From assembly GCA_951406725.2 (NCBI GenBank), contig OX597824.1:4092001-4156000 (forward strand): a stretch of 64,000 bases of DNA, read 5' to 3'. Below, piece by piece: positions 3,949 through 48,247 of the stretch. Within the stretch, counting starts at the first letter, position 1. Each line of letters starts with the position of its first letter. Source of the DNA: Octopus vulgaris. Its lineage: Eukaryota. Below the pieces are notes generated by a model. The model was not told the DNA's origin, ran no database searches, and saw only the letters and a program-made list of their open reading frames with translations. Both the position numbers and the translations under genes were made by a program.

Positions 3949-4183
3949 TGAAATAATTCTATTTTTTACATTTCTTAATCCTGGTTGAGATAATATTTTG
4001 ACATTGTGACCAATCAGTCCATGAACATGGTATTGTCTCTGAATTAAATTATTCTTTTATACGTTTCTCAATGTTTCTGTAACTGTCTGACTATTTATGA
4101 CTTACACTTCTATATTGAAGAGATGGGGAATTATCTACATTATTTACATTTGATGGATATTTGTCCTCATCTTGTTTGTTGTT

Positions 4184-4229
4184 AACACAACATTTCAGCT
4201 GATATACTCTCCATCCTTCATCAGGTGTC
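4184..4229 (-). ncRNA. Minimal type I hammerhead ribozyme motif, left arm of copy A (degenerate)
   Basis: Minus strand reads GACAC CTGATGA AGGATG...CAGCT GAAAT GTT GTGTT. Confidence 0.6.
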
Positions 4230-4524
4230 TTGGGGAAATTTCAACCCTGGGTTCTCATTCCTATGGTACTTTTCAATATTATTATTATTATTATTCAGGT
4301 CACTACCTGGAATCGAACTTGGTATCTTGGGATTAGTAGCCTGTGCTCTTAACCACTACACCCACAGGCATATAGCGTAGTGGTTAAGAGCACGGGTTAT
4401 TAACCCCAAGATTCCGAGTTCGATTCCAGGCAGTGACCTGAATAACAATAATAATAATAATAATAATAACAACAACATTGAAAAATACCTCAGGAATGAG
4501 AACCCAGGTTTGAAATTTCCCCAA

Positions 4525-4570
4525 GACACCTGATGAAGGCTGGATAGTATATCAGCCGAAATGTTGTGTT
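4525..4570 (+). ncRNA. Minimal type I hammerhead ribozyme motif, right arm of copy A
   Basis: GACAC CTGATGA A GGCTG gatagtatat CAGCC GAAA TGTT GTGTT. Stem I GACAC/GTGTT, stem II GGCTG/CAGCC; stem III palindrome AACGTT decayed to AATGTT. Confidence 0.7.
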
Positions 4571-4624
4571 AACAACAAACAAGATGAGGACAAATATCCA
4601 TCAAATGTAAATAATGTATTTCTG

Positions 4625-6524: not shown

Positions 6525-6737
6525 TATGTGTCTGTGTGTCCCCACACACACACTGTAAGTGTTATGTATGAAACTCTGAATCCTTGAGTCAGTTTGTAAC
6601 TTCTGCTGGTTTTAAATTACAAGATATTTATAATCAAGCGTTGAAAACTAATGTAATAAGTTCTATCTATCCCCTGCTTTTTCTCCCAAATTTATCTATG
6701 TATGTGTGTGTGTGTATGTGTGTGTGTGTGTGTGTAT

Positions 6738-6935
6738 ATACAAAATTTAGAGGACTGACCACTAAAAAAAAATGGACAGCCTATATGCTAGATATAGATG
6801 TTAGGCTGCCCATTTTTTTAGTGGTCAGTTCTCTAAATTTTGTATGTAAAAAAAATTTTAATCTTCGTTTTTTTTAAAAATATGCTTGGCCACTGGTTTT
6901 AATTAATATCAATTTCTACCCTTATTTAATTATAT
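6738..6935. repeat. Asymmetric foldback element (about 45-bp arms plus right-arm extension)
   Basis: 6738-6783 is the reverse complement of 6802-6845; sequence is related to 37880-38060. Confidence 0.75.
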
Positions 6936-8652: not shown

Positions 8653-8829
8653 TTGTTTGCCAACATAACATGGCAGTCCAGGTTTAGGACGAATGTTGCT
8701 GTAATTTAGCCCCAGGAGACATCGTCTCCAGCTGGCTATACGGCATGATCTCTATCCTTATGTCTCCTGGGACTAAATTACAGCAACATTTGTCCTAAAC
8801 CAGGACTGCCATGTTATGTTGGCAAACAA
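8653..8829. repeat. Foldback inverted repeat (about 70-bp arms, about 37-bp spacer)
   Basis: TTGTTTGCCAACATAACATGGCAGTCC...GGAGACAT pairs with ATGTCTCC...GGACTGCCATGTTATGTTGGCAAACAA. Confidence 0.85.
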
Positions 8830-14557: not shown

Positions 14558-14706
14558 TTCTATATTTAAGAGATGAGGAATTATGTACATTAGTTACAAT
14601 TGACAGATATTTGTCCTCATCTTGTTTGTTGTTATACCCTCCAGCCTTCATCAAGGGTCTTGGAGAATTTTCGAACCTGGGTTCTCATTCCTAAGGTATT
14701 TTTTGA

Positions 14707-14739
<33 letters not shown>

Positions 14740-14890
14740 CATCATTTTTCAGGTCACTACCTGGAATCGAACTTGGAATCTTGGGGTTAGTAGCCCGCAC
14801 TCTTAACCACTATGCCCATGGGCATATGGTGTAGTGGTTAAGAGCGCGGGCTATTAACCCCAAGATTGTGAATTCGATTCCAGGCAGTGA

Positions 14891-14946
<56 letters not shown>

Positions 14947-15084
14947 TTGAAAAATACCTTAGGAACGAGAACTGAAGTTCGAAATTTCCTCAAGACACCT
15001 GATGAAGGCTGGAGGGTATATCAGCCGAAATGTTGTGTTAACAACAAACAATATGATTGACAAATATCTGTCGAAAGTAAATAA
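14558..15084. mobile_element. Head-to-head inverted dimer of the tRNA-head/(AAT)n/hammerhead element, copy B
   Basis: Same architecture as 4108-4618; palindromic centre TATGCCCATGGGCATA; left-only tail TTCTATATTTAAGAGATGAGGAATTAT; left HHR partly deleted. Confidence 0.85.
14994..15039 (+). ncRNA. Minimal type I hammerhead ribozyme motif, copy B right arm
   Basis: GACAC CTGATGA A GGCTG gagggtatat CAGCC GAAA TGTT GTGTT. Confidence 0.7.
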
Positions 15085-18000
15085 AGAGCATATAGTATGT
15101 CCCTTGTTACTGAAGTACTATTCTGTTACGTCCACGGCCATATATTGAATATCCCAGACCATCAGGCAGAAATAGGTGACATGAGCATGGTGTAGTTTGT
15201 CTTTGTAAGCAGGGGCCAGTGGTGTTTAACTGGTGTTTTTTATGAGACACAATGGTGACTTCAACTATTCTTAGGTGTGAAATGGGGGATGAATATGACC
15301 AAGTGGACTTTCTTCTACAGACATCGAATGAAGACAGACAAAAAAGCACCACCCAGGATCCAATGGCTTACAACATACCACATTATTTTCCTTCACTGCT
15401 CAGTTATCTCCTTCACCTCTCTTACATCTCTCCCTCCACTCCACATCTCTCAACTCAGTCCTTTCTTTCTTTCTTTTTTTCTCTCTCTCATTCTTCCATT
15501 TTCCTCCTTTGACCACTTCACTCATTCTCTCTCTCTCTCTCTGCTAGCTTCTCCTCCTTTTGTACCATTCAGGCCACAATTATTTCCCTCCAACCTGTCC
15601 TGTTGCTCCTCTTCTTCCTCTTCTTCTCTCTTTTACAGTGTTCCTCTTCTGCTCTTTTACTGTCATTTCCTCTTCACTGGTTTCCCAAACTCATCAGTTG
15701 GCATTCATTCCTGCAATGAGAGAAACGAAACAAAAATTTCATTAGTAAATTACTTATGAGTGCTTATGAGCTTTTAATGAGTGTGTCTGATTTTTAGATC
15801 TTAGAAAACAATTAACCAATGTCAAGACTTGGTCACTTAAAGTGCTTTGATCTAGAGATCAACATGGAACATATTGAAACTATAAAACTCTCATATTATT
15901 ACAAATTCAAGATGTTGCCCCAGCATGGTCACAGTCAAATGCCTCAAACAAGTAAAAAATAAAAGACAAGTTATCCTCTCGAGGTTTGTTTAACGTGTGT
16001 CTAATCAAGTGAAAACAGAAACTAATTATAACATTTATAATCAATTAGCAACTCTCGTTAACAGAATTCCCTTTTTTGCATCAGAATTTTATTTTAAATT
16101 AAGATGGATACAATACTTCAAACTTACAGATGATCATGACAAGAATTGTGCATAAAATTCCTAAAGTGTCGACATTTCAAACTTTATTAATTTACATAAC
16201 AAAATAGAATCCAGGAGAAATGGTACAATATTTACGGAATTCAATTGATTTCAGTTCTTATATCTGATCGATACAAAACGAATGGTCTTTGACTGAGGTA
16301 CTCAAGTACTTTCACATAACGGTACATGTGTGCATAAAGAAGATCACCACCATTACTTTAACATCCATTTTTCCATGGTCTCATGGACTGGAAGGAAGTT
16401 AGTTGAAGTACATTTGCTACAGCCAAATGCTGTTCCTGTCACCCACCCTCACCTGTCCCCAAGCAAAGTAATATTTCCCCATGACCAGACATGTTTTCAT
16501 GGAAGATTTTAAACGAAGGATACTAATTGCCATGACCGTGACATGCATTTACCACCATTATACAATGTCAGAGCAACAAGACTAAAACACACACACATAC
16601 ACATCTATATACATATATAAATAAAGAGGCTTCTTCTTGTTTCCTCACTCACAAGCCTTTGGTGAGCCCAGAAGACATTTGCCCCAGGTGCCAAGCAACA
16701 GGACAGAACCTGGAACCAGATGATTTGGAAGTCATTCGTGCATCTATGTATACACGTATTTACGCATGAATGCATACGTTTGAATATACACCCATGCGTA
16801 AAATATTATGACATGTATATTTAAAAACATTCAGACATAAAGTCTTATCCAAATAATTGTCAAATGAATTGTATTTTTGCTTTCATTTATTTGTTTGTAA
16901 TTATTTTTTTAAAAATTGTGTCAATAATTTTAAAAGATGGTATTTCACACAAAACAACACTGCAATAATGACGGCTTTTATGCTTCTCTCTCTGTGCCAT
17001 TTTTTCAATTATTTCTGCTTTTATGTAGTTTCTATGTTATTATAATGATTCTAATTTCATAAATATAACAGACTTAAATTCCATCATTATCATAATTCAC
17101 ACACTCTTAAGATTAGTCTAGTATATATATGTGTGTATATGCATACTTATACACATAACCTCTCTCTCTCTCTCTACAATTTACACACACACACATGTGT
17201 TTGTGTGTGTGTGTCATTTTGAGAAATTTCATATTGGTTTTTCTTTGAAATTCTGACATATTTCTTGAATCTTCAAAGAAAAGAAAATTTTTTTTAAAAA
17301 TCTAATAAACTATGTTACATCCAATGTTTAAATGGGTTCACAGCCATTATCAAGAATTTGATTTGAAGTAAAACCATCATAATAACAAAAAGAAAGGGAA
17401 AAAAGGAAAAGGAAAAGAAGTGGGGCAGGAGTTAGAAGCTGCTGAAAGCAATAAAAATCAATGTTGGTTCTAATGGCAATATGAATACTTAATCTATTGT
17501 GTCTGGAATATCTCAGCATGTATGCCAGATGGCATTATATATACATGGAGTCAGTGTACACCAAACAGCTGTCTGGCAAATGAGAATGCAATATTTAAAA
17601 TTAACAAGGACTGCTACAGCAATCTTCTGGTTATTTTGGTGTTTGAATTTCCATAGGATTATCCTATTGCCAATCAAGATTTCTCGGCCTAATTTGGAAT
17701 TACAAGTAGTGATTAGGTGTGTGGAAGCTGTCATCATGCCCAGCACAGGAATGAGAAAAAAAAAAAAAAACAGAAAGAAGTCTGCTATGATTTGTTTAAG
17801 AATCACTGATGGAGGCCAAATTTGTATTTTGGCAACTGTCTTATGGCAAGTGAATTCATAAATAATGTTACTTTTCTATGACTGCTTATCATTAAATGAC
17901 AAAATTTGCTTTAAGTTCTATTGATTTTAAAGATTTTCTCTGAGCTAATGCTTCGGTATATATATGCAGACTTAACCAGGCAAACATTATGAAGAAATGC

Positions 18001-18553: not shown

Positions 18554-18952
18554 TTCTATATTTTAGAGTGTACAGTATTTACAGTGATGGACAGGTGTCC
18601 TCACCTTGTTTGTTGTTACCGCAACGTTTCGGCTGATGCACTCTCCAGGCTTCATCAGGTGTCCTGGTGGAATTTCGAACCCAATCCTTTAATTGACTAA
18701 TGGGGTCTTCTCTTCTCATGCTTAAGGTATTCTTTCTTCCTGATGTTATTTTTTCTGTTGATATTATTTCCCAAGTCTCTGCTTGAGATTGAACTCAGAA
18801 TCCGTGGGTTAGTAGTACCCCATTAGTCAAATAAAGAGTTGGATTCGAAATTCCACCAGAACACTCAATGAAGGCTTGAGAGTACATCAGCTGAAATGTT
18901 GTGGTAACAACAAACAAGGTGAGGACACCTGTCCATCCTATGTAAATAATGT
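18554..18952. mobile_element. Diverged subfamily of the inverted tRNA/hammerhead element, copy C
   Basis: Starts with the same TTCTATATT tail. Long left arm carries a minus-strand HHR (18618-18663) with intact GAAACGTT and part of the tRNA-like head; shorter right arm about 18817-18952. Confidence 0.75.
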
Positions 18953-42296: not shown

Positions 42297-44170
42297 GATA
42301 CACACACACACATACACAGATACACACATACAAGTGCAGCCATGGCTGTGTGGCAAAGAAGTTGTCTTCATAACTATATAACTCATGTTTAATCCAACAG
42401 CACAGAACTTTGGGCAGACGTTTTCTACTATAATCCTGGAGTTTCCAAACAAAGCCTTGTTGGGGGTTTGGTAGACAAAAACAGAAAGATGCTATATGAG
42501 TCTCTCTCTCTCTCTTTGTTTTGACATCATGAGACAGTTGTAGACAAGCACCACTGTAATATAAGCAGGGTCCTTTATTTTCCAGTCTTCCATGTAAAGA
42601 TGTCTGACTATGGGAAAATATTACCTTGTTTATGAATAAGTGAGAGTTGGTGTGATGAAGGGTATCAGGCCGTTAAAATATATTCCTCAATGAATTCCAT
42701 CTGATCCAAAAACAAACGTTGCAAATCATTTAGAGTGGAATAAAAACCCCAGAACTTATTCTTTGTAAGCCTAGTACTTATTCTGTCGATCTCTTTTGCC
42801 GAACTGCTAAGATACAGGGGCATAAACTCACCAGCATTGCGCCTCCATACTAAAACTGAAAGTCTGAGTAGAACATATATTTGTTTTAATTATTTGTGAT
42901 ATTTTTTATAGTATAATTACGTTATATTATAATGTTAATAAATTTATAATATGTCAATTGTGTTTCTCTATTTCCTTTAATATTCCTATATGTATGCATG
43001 TATCTAAGTACATACATAAAATTTATCTACCATCTGGAAAGCTTTTAAAAAGAAACTTTCACAAAAGACAATAATGTCTCTTACTCTCAACAGTCTCGCT
43101 CTCTACACTTTGCTCTCCATAAGTGGACTGGGAGCTGTTGTCAACTCTCCAACTTTTGTTTACCGCATACTCTCCAACCCACTCTATAGAAAGTCAAGCT
43201 ACAACAACAGCTATTTATTTTATTTGTGAACAAGCTGGAAAATGTTAAGTAAATTTAACTAAGAAATATTAAGTACAATTAAGACAATTAACCAAAGTTA
43301 CTTCTGAGATATTTGAATTTGGTGGGAGACACATGCACTGCCTTCTGGTGTTCAAGAAATACATTAGCTTTTGGTTTTTTTTTATATGAAAGCTAATGAA
43401 TTTCTGGAAGAGTTTGCTATTTGGGGGTCATCGATATCAAAATGCTCAAGAAATACATTAGCTTTCATATAATTGGTGACCCATTGGTAAACATTAACCA
43501 ACCAAATGAAACAGGTTGCCTTAGGCATACAGCAGATAATACTGAAGACTAGAGATGCAAGACTGGATAAACTGGCCACAGATAACAAGGAATAAAGAGA
43601 TGCTGAAATACACACACATACACACACACCATTATCACCATTTAATGTCTACTGTTCCATGGGTCAAATGGAATTTGTTGAGGCAGATTTTCTAGAACTG
43701 GATTCCTTTCCTGTTGCCAACCCTTACTTGTTTCCAAGCAAGATATTTTCCCCAGGGCCAGACATGTTTTTACAGAAGATTGGAAATGAACAACTTTGCT
43801 TGTATGACGTTGACACTCACTTATGACCATCACATGATGTCTTAACTAGAGAACACGCAAAAACACAGACTCACAAGATGGGCTTTCTTAAGTTTACATC
43901 CAAATCTACTCACAATATTTTGTTTGGCCCAGGGCTATAGTGGAAGACACAAGCTGTCACACAGTGGGAATTGAACTCAAGATTACATGGTTAGAATGCA
44001 AACTTCTCAACTATATGTATGCCTACACACACATACACACACACTCACACACAAACATGTGTGTGTGTGTGTAGATATATATACACATATTTCTTTACAC
44101 ACATTCATTTTCTTACAACAATATTTGTTCAACACACATATACATATAACTCTTTATGAAAAGTTTCCTT

Positions 44171-44362: not shown

Positions 44363-44729
44363 GTGTGTGTGTGTATATATATTTGCCATCCGTAACCTTT
44401 TGCAGGGTCTCCTTGAGAGGTGGGTGAAGGCAGTTATTTTCAGAATGGAATCCCAGGGCAAATGCTTACAAAAGGATGAATTCCATTAAAAGCACCTGAG
44501 CACTGAAGAGTGATGTTAAACAAGGTGTGACAAATTAAGTCTGCCACCCAAGGCAGCTACAGTCTATCTTTTGAAGTTCCACAATTTTTTCTGTGCAGCT
44601 AATTCCATTAATCTCCTCAGTTGAAAACAGATACTGGTGGAAAATGGTAGCCATGGTACTTAATAGTGAATGTCGACATAACTGTGTAGTATTTCCCAGA
44701 TTAATGAATCTGGCCAAGAAGACTCTCTA

Positions 44730-44855
44730 ATTTTCGATTCTGGATTTGGTCTACTTCCTGTCTCATTGTTTTGTTATAATAATAACTACATAGTCATTAG
44801 GAGGAAAATATCAAAACAATGAGACAGGAAGTAGGCCAGATTGAGTATTGAAAAT
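44730..44855. repeat. Imperfect foldback (about 45-bp arms)
   Basis: CTACTTCCTGTCTCATTGTTTTG pairs with CAAAACAATGAGACAGGAAGTAG, with mismatched outward extension. Confidence 0.8.
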
Positions 44856-45019
44856 GAAACAGTCCTCTCAGCCCTGTGTTGTCTCTGCTCAGTTAATCAG
44901 CCACTTCACAGAGGGTGCCGGATGCATTGTTTGTGACTCCACTACTAGTGGGGTTAGGGCTGTAGTTTGCAAGATTAAAGAACCCTCGCAACTGACAGGA
45001 ATGATAGGAGGGAGGGAGA

Positions 45020-47053: not shown

Positions 47054-47211
47054 GTTTAGCAACGATTTGCCTCACCACACACCGAGTTTAGAAATAGCAG
47101 TCTAAGTGCTGTGGTTTTACTGAGATCTCCCTTTTAAGTAGAAAGAATAGCCATAACTCTTTGACTGCTATTTCTAAACTCGGTGTGTGGTGAGGCAAAT
47201 CGTTGCTAAAC
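47054..47211. repeat. Perfect 49-bp inverted repeat with 60-bp spacer
   Basis: 47054-47102 is the exact reverse complement of 47163-47211. Confidence 0.95.
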
Positions 47212-47325: not shown

Positions 47326-47365
<40 letters not shown>

Positions 47366-47419
47366 CATATACATATATATACACACACACACACATCAAC
47401 GTAAGCACATAAATGTAAA

Positions 47420-47639
47420 GCAAGGAGGGAAAAAATAGTACTCGAATACCCGAGGTAGAGTAATATGCTTTATCATTATTAAAGCTGCAAAAACACCACA
47501 GAAAACTGCTACTCAGAGTTTCACATTCCTGTTCATCGGACAGTTTAGATTGAGAACTGTCTGACGAATGTCAATGTGAAACCCTGAGTAGCAGATTTTG
47601 TGATATATATTTTTGCAGCTTTGATAATAATAAAGTATA
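47420..47639. mobile_element. Inverted dimer of a short hammerhead-containing element with left-only tail
   Basis: Arms about 47464-47546 and 47555-47639. HHRs: 47505-47544 (minus) ACTGT CCGATGA ACA GGAA TGT GAAA CTCTGAG TA GCAGT; 47556-47595 (plus) ACTGT CTGACGA ... GAAA CCCTGAG TA GCAGA. Confidence 0.75.
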
Positions 47640-48247
47640 TATATATATATATATATATACACATGTGCTTTTTAAAAGGTTGAATGTGAATTTGTCCTTT
47701 AATTGGAGCAGTTTCCAAAAGATTTCTAATGTTATTTCTTCGTACTTTGAATTTACTGGTGTAAATTAGGGGTAGATATGAAAAGTTACGTAGATATATA
47801 AAATATATGATTTCACTTATAAAACAAAGTTCAACAAATTCAATTCTATTTTACATAAATGGGGGAGATTAGAGGTTAATATGGATGATAATTTGGAATA
47901 AAAAACATTATCATCCATTTTAGCATCTACTCTCCTCCATTTATGTAAAATAGGATTGAATTTGTCTGTCTGCCTGTCTGCCTGCTTACGTGTGTGTGTG
48001 ATACTGTCTCCTTGTCCTGATGTTGCATGATAGCCGTAAGCGTGTGTTACAGTTATGCAGTCAGCATCCCTCATTTCCAGTCTTCCATGAAAACATGTCT
48101 GGTCATTGGAAAACATTTTGGGAATGGATGAAGGTTAGTTATAAGAAGGTCATCTGGCTGTAGAGGGAAAGTCCACCTCAACAAATTCCATCCAAATTAG
48201 GCAAGCATGGAAAAGTGGAAGTTAAAATATTGTTGATGATGTTGATG

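What the first reader, a model, noticed from the sequence alone, without database searches (positions are those of the whole stretch)
47420..47639. Second, unrelated family of back-to-back hammerhead dimers with a one-sided tail
Seen: two divergent HHRs 11 bp apart (stem I ACTGT/GCAGT, core C[C/T]GA[T/C]GA, 3-bp stem II with GGAA loop, quasi-palindromic ACTC-T-GAGT stem III, GUA site) in arms of about 80 bp; about 45 bp extra on the left arm; no tRNA head. Inference: the inverted-dimer-plus-tail product is a general mechanism across families, and here the unit is little more than the ribozyme and its 3' tail.
Basis: partly seen in the sequence, partly recalled or inferred. Interest (0 to 1): 0.7.

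Follow-up and report, generated by a model that had tools for sequence, protein, structure and literature searches.

The report
Back-to-back stubs of a Penelope retrotransposon
This hairpin-shaped piece of DNA is a short, aged insertion of an abundant Penelope-type jumping gene whose intact parent is still in the genome; the shape is already known, but its young relatives almost always join one long and one short arm, which likely means two separate DNA copies are made and then fused.

Summary
The sequence is real but is not a stand-alone ribozyme unit. It is a 5'-truncated, head-to-head insertion (47397-47635) of a Penelope-like element (PLE, probably Neptune clade) in (TA)n. I found the parent: 3.43-kb pLTR-ORF-pLTR units with an intact 710-aa telomerase-like RT ORF. 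The hammerhead lies in the pLTR. The tail is 71 bp, not 45, and is the sequence between pLTR and ORF start. Inverted copy plus one-sided tail is published PLE anatomy, and this scan noted it before in sharks.

What the family adds: (1) 32 of 34 young joins pair one tail arm with one short arm, none tail+tail. (2) In 12 of 33 neither arm can be a copy of the other, which favours two cDNAs over self-priming. (3) 5' ends pile up 1-14 nt before stem I, not at the cleavage site. (4) The CCGA core is ancestral; the right arm's CTGA is likely CpG decay, and that ribozyme is degraded. Cleavage is untested.

The parts
47330..47396 (.). (TA)n/(CA)n microsatellite, left flank (target; no TSD discernible)
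   Evidence: 67 of 69 tail ends are followed by TATA or TATG, but the search pattern already fixed the first three letters TAT
47397..47467 (-). Tail, 71 nt: parent sequence between the short end and the long end; in the parent it continues towards the ORF start
47468..47504 (-). Left arm, pLTR segment 3' of the ribozyme, up to the short end (AATAAAG-type site)
47505..47544 (-). Left minimal type I hammerhead motif: stem I ACTGT/GCAGT, core CCGATGA (C at core position 4), 3-bp stem II with GGAA loop, palindromic ACTC-T-GAGT, GUA site; predicted cut between 47510 and 47509
47545..47555 (-). 11-nt spacer = pLTR positions -1..-11 of the left arm; the head-to-head junction lies at its 47555 end (1 nt shared)
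47556..47595 (+). Right hammerhead motif, degraded: core CTGACGA (T likely from CpG decay), loop TCAA, broken stem III palindrome, stem I mismatch
47596..47635 (+). Right arm to the short end (no tail)
47636..47659 (.). (TA)n microsatellite, right flank

Best explanation
The feature is an old, heavily 5'-truncated head-to-head insertion of an autonomous Penelope-like retrotransposon, likely made when the element's enzyme primed two separate cDNAs, one from each strand of a (TA)n target, and their ends were joined. Shown: parent element with intact ORF and pLTRs; two exact outer ends (+72 and +143 counted from the first base of stem I); one long plus one short arm per join; variable junctions; (TA)n flanks. 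Inferred from the Anolis PLE biochemistry (PMC11167929: both strands cut and extended, two internal RT start sites bounding the tail, predicted dimer): each of two RT subunits would start at one of the two sites. Inferred: both cDNAs tend to stop 1-14 nt upstream of stem I, likely at an RNA 5' end or at the base of the extended stem I, and are joined by 0-4 nt microhomology or a few added bases. Ribozyme cleavage probably plays no part in defining these ends. In this copy the ribozymes are passengers and would be masked by the perfect hairpin if the copy is transcribed.
For: Walking upstream from copies reaches about 1.2-1.3 kb of non-coding 3' region and then the ORF. Downstream of the tail the sequence runs into the ORF start. 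L284 holds two intact 710-aa ORFs in 3430-bp tandem units; 10 of 11 loci fetched are pLTR-ORF-pLTR and all 10 end at the short site followed by (TA)n. The fold's best PDB match is TERT, E 2e-9. Young subfamily, 4931 exact hits: of 82 arms, 41 end at +72 and 26 at +143/144; 32 of 34 close joins are long+short and 0 long+long (p 3.5e-8 against 50%). Older tail-selected set: 36 of 41 adjacent partners are short, 2 long, 3 other. In 12 of 33 young joins the short arm reaches 6 nt or more further 5' than the tail arm, and in 5 of these the tail arm lacks most of the ribozyme (hand count), so neither arm templates the other. 40 of 80 arms at risk end in -14..-1, against 4 of 40 in -28..-15. One of 110 5' ends lies within +34..+38, around the cut site.
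Against: No biochemistry on this family; the two-cDNA step is borrowed from a different PLE clade. Double-tail insertions exist in older subfamilies (L027, L205, L239). There is no hard 5' edge: young arms also end at -17..-59, and 26 run past -100, so a single transcription start does not explain everything. Most ORF-bearing copies carry upstream pLTR longer than 12 nt. Microhomology is only modestly enriched: 3 nt or more in 8 of 34 joins against 3-7% for random joins, while 12 of 34 have extra bases instead. Pfam gave no direct RT or GIY-YIG hit on the ORF.
Confidence: 0.72

Rival explanations
1. Self-priming fold-back: one cDNA (or antisense template) folds on a palindrome at its end and is copied back, and the endonuclease resolves it so that one arm keeps the tail (the reading of PMC3846280; tail by EN resolution in PMC8557442).
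For: The commonest young junction is a perfect palindrome on CTAG at -9: 4 exact cases, plus one with a mismatch (L305) and L354, which my de-duplication dropped. In the pairs inspected by eye both arms carry the same subtype variants.
Against: In 12 of 33 joins the short arm holds sequence absent from the tail arm while the tail arm holds the tail, so neither can be copied from the other. Longer palindromes at -26..-19 and -39..-34 were used in 0 of 34 joins.
Confidence: 0.15
2. The short dimer is a non-autonomous element of its own (SINE- or retrozyme-like, ribozyme plus tail) that is transcribed and re-mobilised as a unit.
For: Short dimers are very frequent; some junctions recur (L174, L193, L230; the CTAG join); dimer junctions appear in RNA reads of a related species.
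Against: Junction positions form a continuum from +117 to beyond -400. The same junction occurs with the tail on opposite arms (L174 against L193 and L230). Ribozyme variants match those of the ORF-bearing parent subfamilies. The RNA reads are unstranded and show no begin or end pile-up.
Confidence: 0.08
3. A palindromic MITE or other DNA-transposon derivative with a chance hammerhead-like motif.
For: Hairpin shape and TA flanks; no Rfam hammerhead hit.
Against: Asymmetric ends, variable centre, and a contiguous RT-bearing parent.
Confidence: 0.01

Closest known systems
EN+ Penelope-like elements with inverted 5'-truncated copy and one-sided tail (Craig et al. 2021, PMC8557442, passages; Arkhipova et al. 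2013, PMC3846280, passages)
   Same: pLTR-ORF-pLTR partial tandems, head-to-head inverted copy, tail on one end, palindromes at inverted junctions, microsatellite target, hammerhead in the pLTR.
   Different: Tail of 66-71 nt against the 30-40 nt quoted; 1.2-1.3 kb non-coding 3' region; near-strict one-long-one-short pairing, which I did not find quantified in the passages read.
PAc Poseidon of Anolis (Frangieh et al. 2024, PMC11167929, parts 1-2 of 4 plus passages)
   Same: Two exact start sites bounding the tail, AT-rich target, hammerhead near the ORF start, no 5' ends at the cut site.
   Different: Here the ribozyme and both sites lie in the 5' UTR (ATG about 210 nt after stem I), not inside the ORF; there is a Cys-rich linker before the EN.
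Minimal type I PLE hammerheads (Cervera and de la Pena 2014, PMC4209133, parts 1-2 of 4)
   Same: Palindromic stem III suited to dimer folding, thousands of solitary copies, pairs on opposite strands 100-700 bp apart already reported.
   Different: C instead of U at core position 4 in most subfamilies, no G10.1-C11.1 pair, 2-3 bp stem II with a GNRA loop against a large helix II. A U4C variant is described as much slower in vitro but viable in a viroid (PMC3088659, one passage).

Membership tests
EN+ Penelope-like element | Single ORF with telomerase-like RT | tested here: met
   710-aa ORF; model pLDDT 92.8, best fold match TERT 3du5 at E 2e-9; conserved F249-D250 and Y-R-D-D. Pfam gave no direct hit.
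EN+ Penelope-like element | C-terminal GIY-YIG endonuclease | tested here: inconclusive
   Conserved Y582, Y597-x-G599, R608, H612, C666xxC669, C694-R-H696 across 84 homologues; Atlas neighbours at 0.96-0.97 carry PF01541; no direct Pfam or PDB sequence hit, and the listed fold hits are all polymerases.
EN+ Penelope-like element | pLTRs from partial tandem, hammerhead inside the pLTR | tested here: met
   10 of 11 loci
EN+ Penelope-like element | Inverted 5'-truncated copy and tail on one end | tested here: met
   (L294); the tail is longer than published
EN+ Penelope-like element | Retained spliceosomal intron (some families) | not tested
   no spliced reads examined
Neptune clade | Zn-finger-like Cys motif in the RT-EN linker | tested here: inconclusive
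   Conserved CxC...CPLxGxC at 561-575; spacing is not literally the CX2-5CxxC of PMC8557442. The same paper gives this linker to Nematis too.
Neptune clade | RT phylogeny with reference Neptune elements | not testable with these tools
   No named references; none of the 120 homologues listed (of 817) carries an informative name. The label Neptune rests on recalled motifs.
Type I minimal hammerhead ribozyme | Core C3-U4-G5-A6-N7-G8-A9, G12-A13-A14, U16.1-H17 | tested here: inconclusive
   All positions conserved except 4: C 64, T 25, other 8 of 97 arms, the same ratio as at the other CpG sites (arms were pre-filtered for likeness to the motif). The youngest subfamily has canonical U4.
Type I minimal hammerhead ribozyme | G10.1-C11.1 closing pair | tested here: not met
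   A at 10.1; T, A or G at 11.1 depending on subfamily
Type I minimal hammerhead ribozyme | Palindromic stem III | tested here: met
   ACTC-N-GAGT kept while the central base changes T to A between subfamilies; broken in the window's right arm
Type I minimal hammerhead ribozyme | Self-cleavage at GUA | not testable with these tools
   Indirect only: 1 of 110 genomic 5' ends near the site; no begin or end pile-up in unstranded RNA-seq of a related species
MITE / DNA transposon | Symmetric terminal inverted repeats with fixed interior and TSD | tested here: not met
   ends differ by the tail and the interior varies

The most novel reading that the evidence does not exclude
PLE insertion is an obligately asymmetric double priming: one RNP primes both strands of a (TA)n cut, always using one of each of the two start sites, and fuses the two cDNAs. 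The short dimers are run-offs at an RNA 5' end just before the ribozyme. The C4-core hammerhead, carried through several expansions, is kept as a folded RNA signal rather than as a cutter. The intact young 710-aa element makes all three points directly testable.
Probability: 0.4. Interest if true: 0.6.

Novelty: new member of a known kind. Interest (0 to 1): 0.3.

Why it matters
The window copy itself is an ordinary decayed insertion. The family matters modestly. How PLEs make inverted copies and tails is stated as open in PMC8557442 and PMC3846280, and this genome holds thousands of young, precise products (4931 exact hits) plus intact ORFs. The one-long-one-short rule and the non-nested arms discriminate between published ideas and link the in vitro two-start-site result to genomic anatomy. 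The lineage also gives natural C4 and U4 versions of one hammerhead for a clean cleavage comparison.

Tried and rejected
Rfam scan: no hammerhead among 100 matches. Pfam on ORF fragments, the full ORF and 12 of the 120 listed homologues: no meaningful hit; PDB sequence searches were empty. C6:122.577-122.581 Mb looked like paired pLTRs but is a local duplication (L061). L057's upstream ORF is a different, more distant PLE (33-46% identity) and not the parent. A hard 5' edge at an Inr-like A (-12) was my first idea. The first automated tally over-extended in AT-rich DNA, and the young set shows a pile-up rather than an edge, so a transcription start remains only one option. Extended stem I covariation: 5.17 of 8 pairs against 5.05 for shuffled partners, 1 of 500 shuffles as high; small and confounded by subfamily, so suggestive only. 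MFE folds do not give the catalytic fold, which is uninformative for dimer-type ribozymes. No RNA holder listed for the stretch. A second read lay on the window's own subfamily gave no result, so the RNA boundary is known for one subfamily only. Literature searches: 'Twinscar' 0 papers (name recalled); octopus + Penelope + Neptune + transposable, only PMC8557442 listed; Penelope + retrotransposon + twin priming + head-to-head, 0 papers; seen as listings, in which I saw no description of this family. Repbase and Dfam could not be searched and may hold it. A recalled 2017 paper on PLE hammerhead core variants was not held and may already cover the C4 core. No supplements were read; those of PMC11167929 (Fig. 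S2) and PMC4209133 may bear on tail pairing and core variants.

Full report
Observation. The window holds two divergent hammerhead-like motifs with stem I starting at 47544 (-) and 47556 (+), 11 nt apart. Only the left one passes a structural scan. The right one has lost the GGAA loop, the stem III palindrome and one stem I pair. Rfam lists no hammerhead. Alignment of 30 genomic copies puts the element at about 47397-47635 between microsatellites, with a one-sided tail of 71 nt. The host is a 2.8-Gb genome in 227 contigs; that it is probably a cephalopod is my guess from recall.

Family. The query has 2680 candidates, of which 40 were scored. An exact 35-nt core has 271 matches, a tail motif 774, the young core 4931 and a degenerate core 5893; reversed controls give 0. 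Fifty loci taken in list order on the core alone show single arms, inverted pairs with many different junctions, long upstream extensions, and two alternative outer ends. The dimer is therefore one product class, not a fixed unit.

Parent. Walking upstream leads through about 1.2-1.3 kb of non-coding sequence to the ORF end. Of 20 ten-kb loci, six show ORF, 3' region and ribozyme arm in order (L152, L153, L157, L161, L164, L170), and five carry an inverted copy at the 5' end (L160, L163, L164, L165, L170). Downstream, the tail continues into the ORF start. A search with that region led to a young subfamily. Ten of 11 fetched loci are pLTR-ORF-pLTR; uninterrupted ORFs occur in L284 (two, in 3430-bp tandem), L287 and L291; all ten end at the short site followed by (TA)n. 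Older-subfamily ORFs are 46-80% identical to L284, and the window's left arm aligns to the L284 pLTR and tail. The 710-aa protein has 817 homologues, folds with pLDDT 92.8 and best matches TERT. A degenerate GIY-YIG-like region and a Cys-rich linker are conserved, and Atlas neighbours carry GIY-YIG, but Pfam gives no direct hit. PLE membership is secure; the Neptune label is likely but not tested by a tree.

End rule. In the young subfamily, among 82 arms from loci L295-L364 (70 loci taken from the top of 4931 matches, all on contig 1), 41 end at +72 and 26 at +143/144. Of 34 close head-to-head joins, 32 pair a tail arm with a shorter arm and none pair two tails. One of the 32 (L297) has a shorter arm reaching +94. 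The two exceptions are L337 (one arm stops at +105) and L357 (deleted tail arm) (p 3.5e-8). L345, a long pair, was left out of that count. In 69 older tail-selected loci (70 fetched, one duplicate dropped), 41 had an adjacent partner after four low-complexity or distant hits were dropped: 36 short, 2 long, 3 other. This matches the two RT start sites that bound the tail in PAc (PMC11167929).

Junctions. In 12 of 33 young joins the short arm extends 6 nt or more further 5' than the tail arm (L299, L303, L304, L310, L321, L328, L329, L330, L336, L338, L362, L363; hand count). A fold-back copy cannot give this, since each arm has sequence the other lacks. The commonest join (6 cases) is a CTAG palindrome at -9, while longer palindromes further upstream are unused. 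Overlaps of 3 nt or more occur in 8 of 34 joins against 3-7% by chance; 12 of 34 have extra bases. I infer two independently primed cDNAs joined end to end. PMC3846280 reads such palindromic junctions as self-priming, which remains possible for the symmetric class.

5' pile-up. Forty of 80 arms at risk end within -14..-1, against 4 of 40 within -28..-15 (the 31 long arms include three I reassigned by hand). In the older tail set 41 of 110 ends lie in -12..0. RNA reads of a related species laid on L076 (724-1019 reads in each of three raw runs, about 6% of each run read, unstranded) drop about tenfold upstream of about -8 and show strand-switch joints at -10/-11. These are probably host read-through of genomic copies, so they support the boundary, not a transcript end. 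The zone coincides with an Inr-like CCATTCT (motif recalled) and with the base of an extended stem I; I cannot separate the two. Against a simple start-site model, many arms and most ORF-bearing copies run further upstream.

Ribozyme. In 97 arms not selected on the exact core, core position 4 is C 64, T 25, like the other CpG sites. CCGA is therefore ancestral for the window's subfamily and the right arm's CTGA is likely decay. Across subfamilies the loop (GGAA or GCAA), N7, base 11.1 and the stem III centre change while the rest of the core does not, and the youngest subfamily has U4. This pattern suggests selection on the motif. But G10.1-C11.1 is absent, stem II has 2-3 bp, and 1 of 110 genomic 5' ends lies near the cut site, in line with cleavage not being needed for PAc insertion. 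Activity is untested.

Comparison and verdict. The inverted 5'-truncated copy with a one-sided tail is described as typical PLE anatomy (PMC8557442; PMC3846280), and opposite-strand minimal hammerhead pairs were reported in PMC4209133. Two earlier notes of this scan reached the same reading in sharks. Papers were seen as passages or as half of the text, as stated under Closest known systems; PMC6962438 and PMC3088659 as passages only; no supplements. The finding is a new member of a known kind. Its value lies in the large young family, which quantifies the end rule and offers an intact enzyme for testing.

Noticed in passing
window 4136-4618, 14582-15092, 18572-18952: A second head-to-head hammerhead family with a tRNA-like head and (AAT)n spacer, canonical CTGATGA core and long stem II. 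By eye the three copies share a 25-30 nt extension on the left arm only. No similarity to the L284 element; ARAGORN does not call the head. A tRNA-headed SINE using PLE-type insertion would be more novel than this finding.
   Followed up: partly
L284 (G000:C12:43652500-43662499): Two intact ORF units in tandem, 99.8% identical: very recent activity or an assembly duplication.
   Followed up: partly
window 47054-47211, 47834-47965, 8653-8829, 6735-6848, 44717-44868, 43382-43472: Other short palindromic elements, MITE-like or fold-back; the two tested (47054, 47834) show no similarity to the L284 element.
   Followed up: no
window 48498 (-), 32575 (+), 13635 (+): Further isolated CTGANGA...GAAA hammerhead-like cores from a relaxed scan, possibly from other PLE families.
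   Followed up: no
L269, L270, L281 (G000:C17:22.367-22.388 Mb): Array in which the ORF end joins the pLTR directly downstream of the ribozyme, so these units lack the 3' region and the hammerhead.
   Followed up: no
L057: A copy of this family sits between fragments of two other PLE-like ORFs, suggesting nested insertion in AT-rich PLE remains.
   Followed up: partly
one search run list: The family is held by DNA-scale runs labelled as at least four organisms (A, C, D, E) and a small run of a fifth (B), so it probably predates their split.
   Followed up: no
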